Positions 11,026 through 13,618 of a stretch of 64,000 nt of DNA are shown here, in pieces. The translations under genes and the position numbers were made by a program. The stretch spans positions 1-64,000 of the IMG/VR virus record IMGVR_UViG_3300042147_000025, one strand, 5' to 3'. The first letter of the stretch is position 1. Each line of letters starts with the position of its first letter. The notes beneath the pieces were generated by a model that was not told where the DNA came from, did no database searches, and worked only from the letters and a program-made list of their open reading frames with translations. This DNA comes from a virus.

Positions 11026-12348
11026 TTAAGCTAAGATTTTACTTTCTTGAAGCACATTATCATCCTTCCAAGACATTTTCAAGGGAATTAATGAGGTAAT
11101 TCCAAATTCTTCTCGGAAAGAGTCGCCCATTGCATTCTCCAGAAAACCTACGTCAGACATCTTGACCACAAAACTATCATGGATCGGTAGGATTGGCTTC
11201 ATTTCATCAACAAATTTCTCAATAACTCGTTGTGCAAGATAGGAATCTGCATTCTGTAGTGCTAGCCCAAACGAATCATCTCGGCAATAGCAAGGAATGA
11301 AGTCAGGCGTCATACTGTAAATGTGCTCCCTTACCTTCTTACCTGTGTTCAAGCTCTTATCTATGTTCCAATCTTGAGCTTTAAACTTAGTGATTTCTTT
11401 ATTGATTGCACGATCAGCACTATCTTCGGTCTTGGAGTTAAACAGAATATTGATAGATAATTTAATCAGTTCACGATGGTCATCATTCTGCAAACGTTCT
11501 GGCAGAATATCCATGTAAACATCCAGTGGAAGATTCTCCATACTAATCTGCTCCATAAGACTTGCAATCCTGTAGTGTAAGTTGGAGAAGTCAATCTCCA
11601 CTACTTGCTCACCATTGATTGTAATGTCTAGTCGTGCCTTAGTCTTCTTGTGTTTAATCTTTAGTGCATCAGAATGGAAATACCGGCCACCATGTTCAAA
11701 GTCTTTATTAAAGATACGAGAATAGATGTTGGTCATGACATTACCTTCACCATCCCGGATGTCATGCAACTCATTAATCTTATTAAGCTTTTCTACAATC
11801 TTACGTGCATTTTTGATATTCTTGTTATCTTGATAGTCAATTGCTTTACCATATTCGTTACGAAGAATGATGGTTTGAAGGCTAGCATTATAAGCAGCAA
11901 TAGCACTCTGAACCTCTTCATCTTTAGAACAGAATTCAGCAATGAATAATTCTGATGGCGTGATATAAGACATGATCCTCTTTTCCTTATCTACGTGACC
12001 TTTACCCACGAAGTTCTCAATGTAACCCAAGGCTTCTAAGGTGTCAATGCATTTCAACAGTCTTTGTGTTTGGATACCACGTCTGTTGTACTTGGTCTTG
12101 TTGGTACTATGATTACCTTTATGTCTTGAGTACAGAAGCTTCTCTTGTCTCTTAACACAAGCAATAAGATTCATAATCACTACACCACTAAGTTCCTTAT
12201 CCTCTATCTTAGTGATAGGTCTAAGCTTATTAACTACAGATGTAGATAGATTAATGTTGTATGTTAACAACCTACTCTTAAGGCTATACTCTTCTACTTC
12301 TTCTATCACTATTCCACTCCTAGTCCCTCTTCTGTTCATATGGGGCAA
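11026..12348 (-). CDS. Short PolA/T7-RNAP-superfamily (right-hand) polymerase of uncertain function
   Basis: GGRYF, motif A-like VEIDFSNLH, motif B-like RELIKLSINILFN, motif C-like PIHDSFVV; start codon uncertain. Confidence 0.7.
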   Translation of the reverse strand: MPHMNRRGTRSGIVIEEVEEYSLKSRLLTYNINLSTSVVNKLRPITKIEDKELSGVVIMNLIACVKRQEKLLYSRHKGNHSTNKTKYNRRGIQTQRLLKCIDTLEALGYIENFVGKGHVDKEKRIMSYITPSELFIAEFCSKDEEVQSAIAAYNASLQTIILRNEYGKAIDYQDNKNIKNARKIVEKLNKINELHDIRDGEGNVMTNIYSRIFNKDFEHGGRYFHSDALKIKHKKTKARLDITINGEQVVEIDFSNLHYRIASLMEQISMENLPLDVYMDILPERLQNDDHRELIKLSINILFNSKTEDSADRAINKEITKFKAQDWNIDKSLNTGKKVREHIYSMTPDFIPCYCRDDSFGLALQNADSYLAQRVIEKFVDEMKPILPIHDSFVVKMSDVGFLENAMGDSFREEFGITSLIPLKMSWKDDNVLQESKILA

Positions 12349-12636: not shown

Positions 12637-12921
12637 TTAATCCTCAATCCCATCATCAAAATGTCTACGAATCAAATACTGTCGCCACTCTTCACTCACT
12701 TCATAATCTTTCTTTGTGTGGTTGTCAAAGAAATACATAGCCCAACCACTACTACTGATGATACCACCTTCTCGGATAGGTTTGCCCCAAGATTCCTCTA
12801 CATTTAACACTTGGCCTTCAACGTATGTAGATGCAAGATAGCGTGATTTGCTGAGGACAACTGAAGAGTATTTCTTTCCTGAGTGTATATGTGTAACGTA
12901 CCAAGCTTTAAGGTTGTTCAT
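12637..12921 (-). CDS. Hypothetical protein
   Basis: 94-aa ORF, TAATG coupling. Confidence 0.55.
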   Translation of the reverse strand: MNNLKAWYVTHIHSGKKYSSVVLSKSRYLASTYVEGQVLNVEESWGKPIREGGIISSSGWAMYFFDNHTKKDYEVSEEWRQYLIRRHFDDGIED

Positions 12922-13112
12922 TATACATTCCTCACTAAGTATCCAAGAACTTTAAGCAAGTCTTCATTGACATCAAGCTTGTAAAGCAGACTGATAATCT
13001 CTTTCTTCTCCTCAGCCTTAACCCTATCCACAAGAATCTTCTTACAAGCCATCATTCCCTCACCAGTTTCCTGCTGCAAAGCTTTCACTTCCTCAATCGT
13101 TGGACCTTTCAT
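12921..13112 (-). CDS. Mini-protein resembling the EF-Ts N-terminal (UBA-like) domain
   Basis: TIEEVKALQQETGEGMMACKKIL versus EF-Ts [23 protein letters not shown]. Confidence 0.7.
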   Translation of the reverse strand: MKGPTIEEVKALQQETGEGMMACKKILVDRVKAEEKKEIISLLYKLDVNEDLLKVLGYLVRNV

Positions 13113-13113
13113 T

Positions 13114-13386
13114 TTACTCTTCCTCTGTCAAAGTATAGCCCATTCTAATCAGCCGCTCATCACACCAATCTCTACTAGGCTGATACTGCCCGTATTCTGG
13201 AGCACAACCTTTAGGCCCTTCTTTCCAATTCTTGTAATCCTTGAACCAATCACCATCATACCGAGCAACACGAACACGAGGAGTCTTCTCAATAAAAGCT
13301 ACACGATTTTCAATTTCCCCACGATCAGTTCCTAACACATACCGTATAGAACAATGATCTTCCATAACCCAAGCGCTTAATTTCAT
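13114..13386 (-). CDS. Hypothetical protein
   Basis: 90-aa ORF with GAGGAGG RBS, first gene of the leftward operon. Confidence 0.65.
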   Translation of the reverse strand: MKLSAWVMEDHCSIRYVLGTDRGEIENRVAFIEKTPRVRVARYDGDWFKDYKNWKEGPKGCAPEYGQYQPSRDWCDERLIRMGYTLTEEE

Positions 13387-13415
13387 GATACGTCCTCCTC
13401 AATTAATGTAGGCCA

Positions 13416-13582
13416 ATCTTACCTCCATCACCAACCCCTGTCAAGCACCCTTTCGAAAAATCTTCTGACAGAGTGTAGATTTATCTACCAAACAAATTTG
13501 CCCAAGGAGGGTTTCCCTGAAATGAGAGTTTAGAGAATATTTTTAAATCGGTGCTTGACAGTGCCGATGGTGCGTGTAAACT
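13416..13582. promoter_or_regulatory. Divergent sigma70 promoter pair at the strand switch
   Basis: Minus: TTGACA(13444-13439)-17-TAAGAT; plus: TTGACA(13555-13560)-16-TAAACT. Confidence 0.75.
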
Positions 13583-13618
13583 GAGGCCAATTGAAAACAA
13601 ATCTGAAGGAGCCTGATC

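What the first reader, a model, noticed from the sequence alone, without database searches (positions are those of the whole stretch)
12921..13112. 63-aa early protein mimicking the EF-Ts N-terminal domain
Seen: VKALQQETGEGMMACKKIL aligns without gaps to [19 protein letters not shown] of bacterial EF-Ts. The GMM..KK helix region that contacts EF-Tu domain I is kept, the conserved Arg is replaced by Gln, and the EF-Ts core domain is absent. It is the second gene after a strong early promoter. Inference: it may bind EF-Tu to modulate host translation, or shield EF-Tu from defence systems that target it.
Basis: partly seen in the sequence, partly recalled or inferred. Interest (0 to 1): 0.7.

Follow-up and report, generated by a model that had tools for sequence, protein, structure and literature searches.

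The report
Phage mini-protein copying EF-Ts hairpin
A complete 93-kb phage, probably of Pseudomonas, has a conserved 63-residue gene whose first 31 residues copy the two-helix hairpin that bacterial EF-Ts uses to grip the translation factor EF-Tu, without the catalytic part, so it probably docks on host EF-Tu, though binding is untested.

Summary
Window 12921-13112 (minus strand) is a real 63-aa gene. Residues 1-31 are homologous to the N-terminal alpha-hairpin of EF-Ts. A phage-only profile against 22 independent EF-Ts N-termini gives hhalign probability 96.6%, E 5.4e-10. All six PDB hits are EF-Ts. In a 6.4-Mb Pseudomonas genome the profile hits one place, the start of tsf.

The rest of the protein is not EF-Ts. 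The third helix of the TS-N/UBA bundle (GDxxxAxxxLR) is replaced by an extended helix 2 and a new C-terminal helix ending in YLVR. No EF-Ts core exists in this genome or in five complete relatives.

The hairpin motif TGEGMMACKK is invariant in 31 homologues despite synonymous changes. Its Glu is a Pseudomonas EF-Ts hallmark: 28 of 30 Pseudomonas species, 0 of 76 other bacteria sampled. Homologues occur in cultured Pseudomonas phages (Bitten, ventosus, UAVern, phiK7A1, vB_PF_Y1-MI), all annotated hypothetical.

Most likely it is a non-catalytic EF-Tu ligand. What it achieves (throttling translation, shielding EF-Tu, recruiting it) is inferred, not shown. The Arg needed for EF-Ts binding in M. 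tuberculosis is Gln here.

This scan has noted similar stand-alone EF-Ts N-domain proteins on other phage DNA. I found no published study. It is a new variant of a known domain.

The parts
12921..13112 (-). 63-aa gene (stop codon 12921-12923) encoding the EF-Ts-hairpin mini-protein
   Evidence: ORF list. There are 31 homologues of 63-77 aa. Synonymous variation occurs inside the invariant motif. AF2 model has mean pLDDT 92.5.
13020..13112 (-). Codons 1-31: helix 1, TGEG turn and start of helix 2. [quoted passage not shown]
   Evidence: hhalign probability 96.6%, E 5.4e-10, columns 1-31. PDB profile hits are EF-Ts only. Unique hit at the tsf start in a Pseudomonas genome. Superposes on 1EFU chain B residues 1-35 at rmsd 2.0 A over 31 residues, 42% identity, Z 3.0.
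12924..13019 (-). Codons 32-63: non-EF-Ts scaffold. It comprises the continuation of helix 2 (to residue 45), a loop of variable length in relatives, and a C-terminal helix ending in the conserved L..YLVR motif.
   Evidence: Alignment A1 shows variable sequence and 0-14-residue insertions with conserved L56, V60 and R61. AF2 helices are 20-45 and 50-62. There is no hhalign match beyond column 31.
13117..13125 (-). Shine-Dalgarno-like GAGGAAGAG, 4-12 nt upstream of the ATG. The upstream gene's TAA stop (13114-13116) is one base from the ATG.
   Evidence: Read directly from the sequence.
13114..13386 (-). First gene of the operon, 90 aa, unknown function
   Evidence: ORF list. No Pfam or PHROG match. 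An 83% identical homologue lies about 1.1 kb from the type-B TS-N gene in L011.
12637..12921 (-). Third gene, 94 aa, unknown function. Its ATG overlaps the stop of the hairpin gene (TAATG).
   Evidence: ORF list and sequence. Only sub-threshold family matches.
13416..13444 (-). sigma70-like promoter candidate TTGACA-17-TAAGAT in the divergent intergenic region 13387-13618
   Evidence: Consensus scan, 10 of 12 matches. GC skew switches sign at about 14 kb. This is a pattern match only.

Best explanation
[quoted passage not shown] Residues 1-31 keep the EF-Ts helix 1, TGxGMMxCKK turn and helix 2. The third helix of the TS-N bundle has been replaced by an extended helix 2 and a new C-terminal helix, which probably packs back to stabilise the hairpin.

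The protein most likely docks on the G domain of the host's (probably Pseudomonas) EF-Tu, at the surface used by the EF-Ts N-domain. It lacks the EF-Ts core that pries open the nucleotide pocket, so it cannot catalyse GDP/GTP exchange. It would be a non-catalytic EF-Tu ligand that competes with EF-Ts, and possibly with the similar hairpin of ribosomal protein L7/L12. By that route it could tune elongation, mask EF-Tu or recruit it.

Shown: homology, selection, absence of the core, phage and host range. Inferred: binding to EF-Tu and every downstream effect.
For: Homology of residues 1-31:
- hhalign of the phage-only profile against independent EF-Ts N-termini: probability 96.6%, E 5.4e-10.
- All PDB sequence hits are EF-Ts.
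- An exhaustive HMM search gives 731 hits at E<=1e-3. All four hits of about 290-300 aa that I checked carry PF00889.
- There is a single genome-wide hit at the tsf start in P. kilonensis.
- All 80 sampled EF-Ts N-termini score 14-40 bits with the phage profile.

What this segment does in EF-Ts:
- In the M. tuberculosis EF-Tu:EF-Ts structure, K24 on helix 2 makes salt bridges to EF-Tu D144/D145, and R13 on helix 1 bonds P114/E155 (PMC9529903).
- K24 is invariant in the phage family.

Selection:
- TGEGMMACKK is invariant in 31 homologues while the C-terminal half varies and carries indels.
- Synonymous codon differences occur inside the motif.

Host match:
- The Glu of TGEG occurs in 28 of 30 Pseudomonas EF-Ts and in 0 of 76 non-Pseudomonas EF-Ts sampled.
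- All five cultured phages with a homologue infect Pseudomonas.

Related family:
- A sister 'type-B' phage family carries the same TGEGMMAC motif in a complete TS-N domain.
- Its model superposes on EF-Ts N-domains at about 1.1 A over 44 residues, probability 1.00.

No EF-Ts core is present in this or in five complete related genomes.
Against: - Binding was not demonstrated by any tool.
- Arg13, reported as indispensable for EF-Tu:EF-Ts complex formation in M. tuberculosis (PMC9529903), is Gln in this clade. Many wider-family members keep Arg.
- The isolated N-domain is only one of several EF-Ts contact surfaces, so its affinity alone may be low.
- The third helix of the domain is not conserved, so the hairpin's geometry and exposure in the new scaffold rest on a prediction.
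- Pfam's EF-Ts_N and UBA models do not match.
- Whole-model fold searches give only generic helical hits. The EF-Ts match is local and weak (Z 3.0).
Confidence: 0.5

Rival explanations
1. Re-purposed hairpin. The protein descends from the EF-Ts N-domain but now binds another partner, such as another translational GTPase (as the L7/L12 hairpin does), a phage protein or a defence protein. The conserved YLVR helix would form part of a new interface.
For: - The third helix is replaced, and a separate conserved C-terminal motif exists.
- The key Arg13 is Gln in this clade.
- In another huge phage this scan noted an EF-Ts hairpin used as a head-protein propeptide, not as an obvious EF-Tu binder (unchecked note).
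Against: - The residues kept invariant are those conserved in EF-Ts itself: V9, L12, T16, G17, G19, M20, M21, C23, K24, K25 and L27.
- The Pseudomonas-specific Glu is kept.
- That pattern fits an unchanged target better than a new one.
Confidence: 0.22
2. EF-Ts decoy. The protein imitates the EF-Ts N-terminus to soak up a host or competitor factor that recognises EF-Ts, for example a toxin or defence protein that needs EF-Ts. It would not act on EF-Tu.
For: - The similarity to EF-Ts runs from Met1.
- A review of contact-dependent inhibition effectors discusses EF-Tu and EF-Ts repeatedly (PMC9086364, listed; I did not read it). That some of these toxins depend on both factors is my recollection, not a tool result.
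Against: - I know of no factor that recognises the EF-Ts N-domain specifically.
- The one partner of this hairpin named in the papers read is EF-Tu.
Confidence: 0.08
3. Chance or generic helix-turn-helix resemblance. It would be a small helical phage protein unrelated to EF-Ts, for example a DNA-binding or structural protein.
For: - The model's helices 1-2 also superpose on the HU N-terminal helices (rmsd 1.4 A over 38 residues, Z 4.6) and on homeodomains.
- There is no Pfam hit.
Against: - Sequence statistics: hhalign E 5.4e-10.
- All PDB hits are EF-Ts.
- There is a unique genome-wide hit at tsf.
- A type-B family with the same motif in a full TS-N fold bridges the two.
Confidence: 0.03

Closest known systems
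N-terminal (TS-N, UBA-like) domain of bacterial elongation factor Ts, e.g. E. coli EF-Ts residues 1-54 in PDB 1EFU and M. tuberculosis EF-Ts in 7VMX (Pfam PF25025 EF-Ts_N, PF00627 UBA/TS-N)
   Same: Helix 1, the TGxGMMxCKK turn and helix 2 align in register from Met1. There are 12 of 19 identities in the core stretch. K24 is kept. The local superposition is 2.0 A over 31 residues.
   Different: There is no third helix with GDxxxAxxxLR, so it is not a canonical three-helix TS-N bundle. Helix 2 runs on to residue 45 and a new C-terminal helix follows. Arg13 is Gln. No core, dimerisation or C-terminal modules are present, so no exchange activity is expected. It falls below the Pfam thresholds.
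'Type-B' phage TS-N proteins (e.g. P0040, which is 98% identical to the ORF at L011:3857-4150; P0057, P0069, P0071; an unannotated ORF in Pseudomonas aeruginosa phage Y1)
   Same: They carry the same derived motif TGEGMMAC(K/R)K, are stand-alone small phage proteins, occur in phage contigs of about 95-104 kb, and lack an EF-Ts core.
   Different: Type B keeps the complete TS-N domain. Its model matches EF-Ts N-domains at about 1.1 A over 44 residues. It also has a helical N-terminal extension of about 50 residues. The present protein starts directly with the hairpin and has swapped the third helix.
Caulobacter phage Colossus gp247, a truncated EF-Ts (PMC3556154)
   Same: It is a phage-encoded fragment of EF-Ts, proposed to modulate host translation.
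   Different: gp247 (98 aa) is described as carrying core subdomain N with the catalytic Phe81 equivalent. That is the part missing here. The two are complementary fragments of EF-Ts.
C-terminal domain of ribosomal protein L7/L12 (helices 4-5)
   Same: [quoted passage not shown] The title of Kothe 2004 places the contact on EF-Tu helix D.
   Different: No sequence match to Pfam Ribosomal_L12 was found for this protein. The sequence is clearly EF-Ts-type.

Membership tests
EF-Ts N-terminal domain (TS-N; PF25025 / PF00627) | Helix 1, TGxGMMxCKKxL turn and helix 2 hairpin at the extreme N-terminus | tested here: met
   hhalign probability 96.6%, E 5.4e-10, columns 1-31. PDB hits are EF-Ts only. 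Unique hit at the tsf start in a Pseudomonas genome.
EF-Ts N-terminal domain (TS-N; PF25025 / PF00627) | Third helix (GDxxxAxxxLR) completing the UBA-like three-helix bundle | tested here: not met
   The profile alignment ends at column 31. The AF2 model has one continuous helix 20-45 and no GD turn. Type-B relatives do have it.
EF-Ts N-terminal domain (TS-N; PF25025 / PF00627) | Scores above Pfam's gathering threshold | tested here: not met
   No Pfam family is reported even at E<=10. Bona fide bacterial EF-Ts also often fall below the PF25025 cut-off of 33.2 bits: 17.7-24.3 bits.
EF-Ts N-terminal domain (TS-N; PF25025 / PF00627) | EF-Tu-contacting residues Arg13 (helix 1) and Lys24 (helix 2), as in M. 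tuberculosis EF-Ts (PMC9529903) | tested here: inconclusive
   Lys24 is invariant. Arg13 is Gln in this clade and Arg in many wider-family members.
EF-Ts N-terminal domain (TS-N; PF25025 / PF00627) | Binds the G domain of EF-Tu | not testable with these tools
   This needs pull-down, ITC, or a structure of the complex.
Full-length elongation factor Ts (guanine-nucleotide exchange factor; PF00889 EF_TS) | Core domain with the TDF motif that opens the nucleotide pocket | tested here: not met
   The protein is 63 aa. PF00889 finds nothing in the complete 93,120-bp genome or in five complete relatives.
Generic UBA-like three-helix bundle | Compact three-helix UBA fold recognisable by structure search | tested here: inconclusive
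   Foldseek finds no hit at E<=0.001, and VIA's best Z of 5.7 goes to generic helical proteins. The type-B control does retrieve EF-Ts, UBA and NAC domains.
PHROG 36594 (unknown function) | Profile match | tested here: inconclusive
   E 0.0018, 19 bits, residues 3-30 only.

The most novel reading that the evidence does not exclude
The hairpin protein is an early counter-defence or hijacking factor. In one version, clamping the EF-Ts/L12 face of EF-Tu hides EF-Tu from EF-Tu-directed abortive-infection systems: Lit-type and type IV Thoeris proteases, or Avs7, which builds EF-Tu into its complex (PMC13581612). In the other version it delivers EF-Tu as a host subunit to a phage enzyme, as Qbeta replicase does. 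One candidate enzyme is the 440-aa polymerase-like protein encoded about 0.6 kb downstream, which keeps this position in two related contigs.
Probability: 0.12. Interest if true: 0.85.

Novelty: new variant of a known kind. Interest (0 to 1): 0.55.

Why it matters
EF-Tu is among the most abundant bacterial proteins and a recurrent point of contact between phages and hosts. Examples are the Qbeta replicase subunit, the Lit and type IV Thoeris cleavage target, and the Avs7 component (PMC13581612).

A phage family has kept only the EF-Tu-gripping hairpin of EF-Ts, under strong selection and with a host-genus-specific residue. That would be a minimal natural EF-Tu ligand and a new way for DNA phages to act on elongation.

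Homologues exist in cultured Pseudomonas phages (Bitten, ventosus, UAVern, phiK7A1, vB_PF_Y1-MI), where they are annotated hypothetical. The idea is therefore directly testable. If binding is confirmed, a whole set of hypothetical genes gains a function. The roughly 30-residue hairpin could also serve as a tool to probe EF-Tu/EF-Ts/L12 interplay.

Tried and rejected
- Complex prediction of the protein (alignment A1) with Pseudomonas aeruginosa EF-Tu returned 'no answer' (score 0.01, mark 0.32). It counts neither for nor against binding.
- Pfam gave no match for the protein.
- Foldseek and VIA-align on the whole model gave only generic helical matches.
- blastn of the region and tblastn of the 63-aa protein against cultured phages gave no match. 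Cultured homologues appeared only when a more distant family member was used as query.
- Scanning 185,579 bacterial and archaeal species genomes for the phage-type motif found no relative.
- No RNA holder was listed among sequencing runs, so expression and timing remain untested. Rhizosphere-labelled runs hold the DNA (shares 1.00, 0.35 and 0.21).
- I tested whether overall similarity singles out Pseudomonas tsf as donor. It does not: several Clostridia EF-Ts score higher with the phage profile. Only the single Glu marker points to Pseudomonas.
- I tested whether the hairpin gene travels with the stand-alone GGQ domain. The GGQ domain was not found in five complete relatives.
- Immediate neighbours are not conserved with the gene, so no obligate partner gene was found.
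- The protein atlas gave only sub-0.9 leads (EF-Ts_N and UBA-like clusters).
- Literature searches for a studied phage EF-Ts N-domain protein, or for a phage protein that binds EF-Tu in this way, found none.

Full report
**The gene.** Window 12921-13112, minus strand, is an ATG-initiated ORF of 63 codons.
- A Shine-Dalgarno-like GAGGAAGAG lies 4-12 nt upstream of the ATG (13117-13125).
- The stop codon of the preceding 90-codon ORF (13114-13386) is one base from the ATG.
- The gene's own stop overlaps the ATG of the next ORF (12637-12921) as TAATG.
- It is therefore the second cistron of a tightly coupled minus-strand operon of small genes.
- The operon starts at a divergent intergenic region (13387-13618), where GC skew changes sign. 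A TTGACA-17-TAAGAT site lies there at 13444..13416.
- The promoter scan is a pattern match only: 4 sites found against 2.9 +/- 1.9 expected. 'Early' is inferred from this position.

**The genome.** The window belongs to a complete 93,120-bp virus record with direct terminal repeats.
- It is a myovirus with primase/helicase, PolA, ribonucleotide reductase, tail sheath, baseplate and HK97-type head genes.
- Its tail sheath is 39-49% identical to those of Pseudomonas myoviruses of about 90-100 kb (vB_PsaM_M1, Bitten, UAVern, phiK7A1, the KIL phages).
- Rhizosphere-labelled sequencing runs hold the DNA.

**Is the resemblance to EF-Ts real?** Yes.
- The single sequence against PDB returns only EF-Ts chains (six of six, best E 0.08). 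The alignment is ungapped and in register from residue 1.
- Thirty-one homologues of 63-77 aa were found. A profile of them again hits only EF-Ts (E 4e-4 to 0.01).
- I built an independent alignment of 22 bacterial EF-Ts N-termini from named genomes. hhalign of the phage-only profile against it gives probability 96.6%, E 5.4e-10 over columns 1-31 of both.
- An exhaustive HMM search of 1.84 billion representatives gave 731 hits at E<=1e-3. Of the ten hits I scanned against Pfam, the four of 286-307 aa all carry PF00889 as full-length EF-Ts, and two long proteins (597 and 1175 aa) carry PF00889 with extra domains.
- As a specificity control, the phage-only profile searched in six frames over a whole 6.4-Mb Pseudomonas kilonensis genome hits one place, the first 31 codons of tsf (E 4.8e-6).
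- All 80 sampled EF-Ts N-termini score 14-40 bits with it.

**What is and is not conserved.**
- In the 31-member family, M1, T5, E7, L12, T16, G17, E18, G19, M20, M21, A22, C23, K24, K25 and K36 are invariant. The segment after residue 36 varies and carries 0-14-residue insertions. It ends in a conserved L..YLVR helix.
- Codons inside the invariant TGEGMMACKK differ synonymously between phages (GGT/GGC, GAG/GAA, GGA/GGG, TGT/TGC). The conservation is therefore selection on the peptide.
- The AF2 model (mean pLDDT 92.5) has helices 6-16, 20-45 and 50-62. The EF-Ts hairpin is present, but helix 2 runs on without the GD turn, and a new helix folds back.
- The hhalign match stops at column 31.
- 1EFU chain B superposes only locally: residues 2-33 on 1-35, rmsd 2.0 A, 42% identity, Z 3.0.
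- Whole-model fold searches are uninformative.
- The protein is thus not a full TS-N/UBA domain. It is the hairpin on a new scaffold.

**A bridging family.** Viral contig L011 and several database proteins (P0040, P0057, P0069, P0071) carry the same derived TGEGMMAC motif. In them it is followed by the canonical GDxEKAVxYLR helix and preceded by a helical extension of about 50 residues.
- The model of P0040 retrieves EF-Ts N-domains as its top 17 PDB hits (probability 0.98-1.00, about 1.1 A over 44 columns, 48% identity), followed by NAC and UBA domains.
- This serves as a positive control for the fold search. It is also evidence that phages carry both a complete and a re-scaffolded version.
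- A type-B copy lies in the unannotated record of P. aeruginosa phage Y1.

**Host link.**
- tblastn with a more distant family member (P0035) finds homologues in five cultured phages, all infecting Pseudomonas: Bitten, ventosus, UAVern, phiK7A1 and vB_PF_Y1-MI. All are annotated 'hypothetical protein'.
- The Glu in TGEG is characteristic of Pseudomonas EF-Ts. It occurs in 28 of 30 sampled Pseudomonas species, with TGQG in the other two. It occurs in none of 76 EF-Ts from other genera, where the residue is A, L, S, V or Q.
- This fits capture from, or adaptation to, Pseudomonas translation machinery.
- Overall profile scores do not single out Pseudomonas, so the donor is not established.
- No relative occurs in 185,579 bacterial and archaeal species genomes. 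The family appears to be confined to phages.

**Function.**
- In the M. tuberculosis EF-Tu:EF-Ts crystal structure, K24 (helix 2) forms salt bridges to EF-Tu D144/D145, and R13 (helix 1) bonds P114/E155. R13 is required for complex formation (PMC9529903).
- The phage family keeps K24 invariant. This clade has Gln at position 13; many wider relatives keep Arg.
- The catalytic core is absent from the protein, from the whole genome and from five complete relatives.
- The best-supported reading is a non-catalytic ligand of the EF-Tu G domain that would compete with EF-Ts and perhaps L7/L12. I put this at about 0.5.
- Whether the purpose is to throttle elongation, to mask EF-Tu from defences that act on it (Lit, type IV Thoeris, Avs7; PMC13581612), or to recruit EF-Tu is open.

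**Context.**
- The same genome also encodes a stand-alone GGQ release-factor domain (G000 88432-88623). Earlier notes of this scan report an anti-Shine-Dalgarno RNA. Together these suggest a broader set of translation-directed genes in this phage.
- The GGQ gene was not found in five relatives that carry the hairpin.
- The immediate neighbours of the hairpin gene differ between relatives.
- The 440-aa polymerase-like gene downstream is retained in L008 (97% identity) and L009 (37%).

**Prior knowledge.**
- I found one published phage EF-Ts fragment, Colossus gp247. It is described as the complementary piece, core subdomain N (PMC3556154).
- I found no study of a stand-alone TS-N hairpin protein.
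- This scan has noted stand-alone EF-Ts N-domain proteins on other phage DNA, including a probable Pseudomonas-phage family. Those are unchecked AI notes and not independent evidence.

**Verdict.** This is a new variant of a known domain, with an untested but readily testable mechanism.

Noticed in passing
window 11026-12348 (-): A 440-aa protein in PHROG 4756 (E 7.8e-57), with a faint match to a phage RNA-polymerase PHROG (E 0.061). It lies about 0.6 kb downstream of the hairpin gene and is retained downstream of it in L008 (97% identity) and L009 (37%).
   Followed up: partly
G000:C1:88432-88623 (+), locus L092, outside the window: A stand-alone GGQ (RF-1, PF00472) domain in a 73-codon open frame, E 2.1e-16 and above the Pfam cut-off. 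It was not found in five complete relatives that carry the EF-Ts hairpin gene.
   Followed up: partly
L011:2640-2906 (-) versus window 13114-13386 (-): The 90-aa protein encoded just upstream of the hairpin gene has an 83% identical homologue in the 104-kb contig L011. There it lies about 1.1 kb from, and opposite in orientation to, that phage's type-B TS-N gene. This loose linkage of the two genes in two different phages is unexplained.
   Followed up: no
protein P0045 (34 aa), from the representative search: A 34-residue variant joins the hairpin (to ...CKKIL) directly to the terminal AYLVRNA motif. It looks like an internal deletion of the family's variable middle. It may be a minimal form or a broken gene.
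   Followed up: no
protein P0042 (130 aa), from the representative search: A small protein with two tandem complete TS-N domains and no EF-Ts core (PF25025 E 1.7e-10, two stretches). Its source is unknown.
   Followed up: no
L095:1501-1668 (Pseudomonas phage Y1, OQ572403.1 19326-19493): The record has no annotation at all. It holds a type-B TS-N open reading frame (tblastn E 5e-6).
   Followed up: no
L093 and L094 (phages Bitten and ventosus): In these cultured phages the hairpin gene is annotated with a 20-residue longer N-terminus (87 aa). It sits in a module with a glutathionylspermidine synthase and a DprA-like gene, a different neighbourhood from the window's.
   Followed up: no
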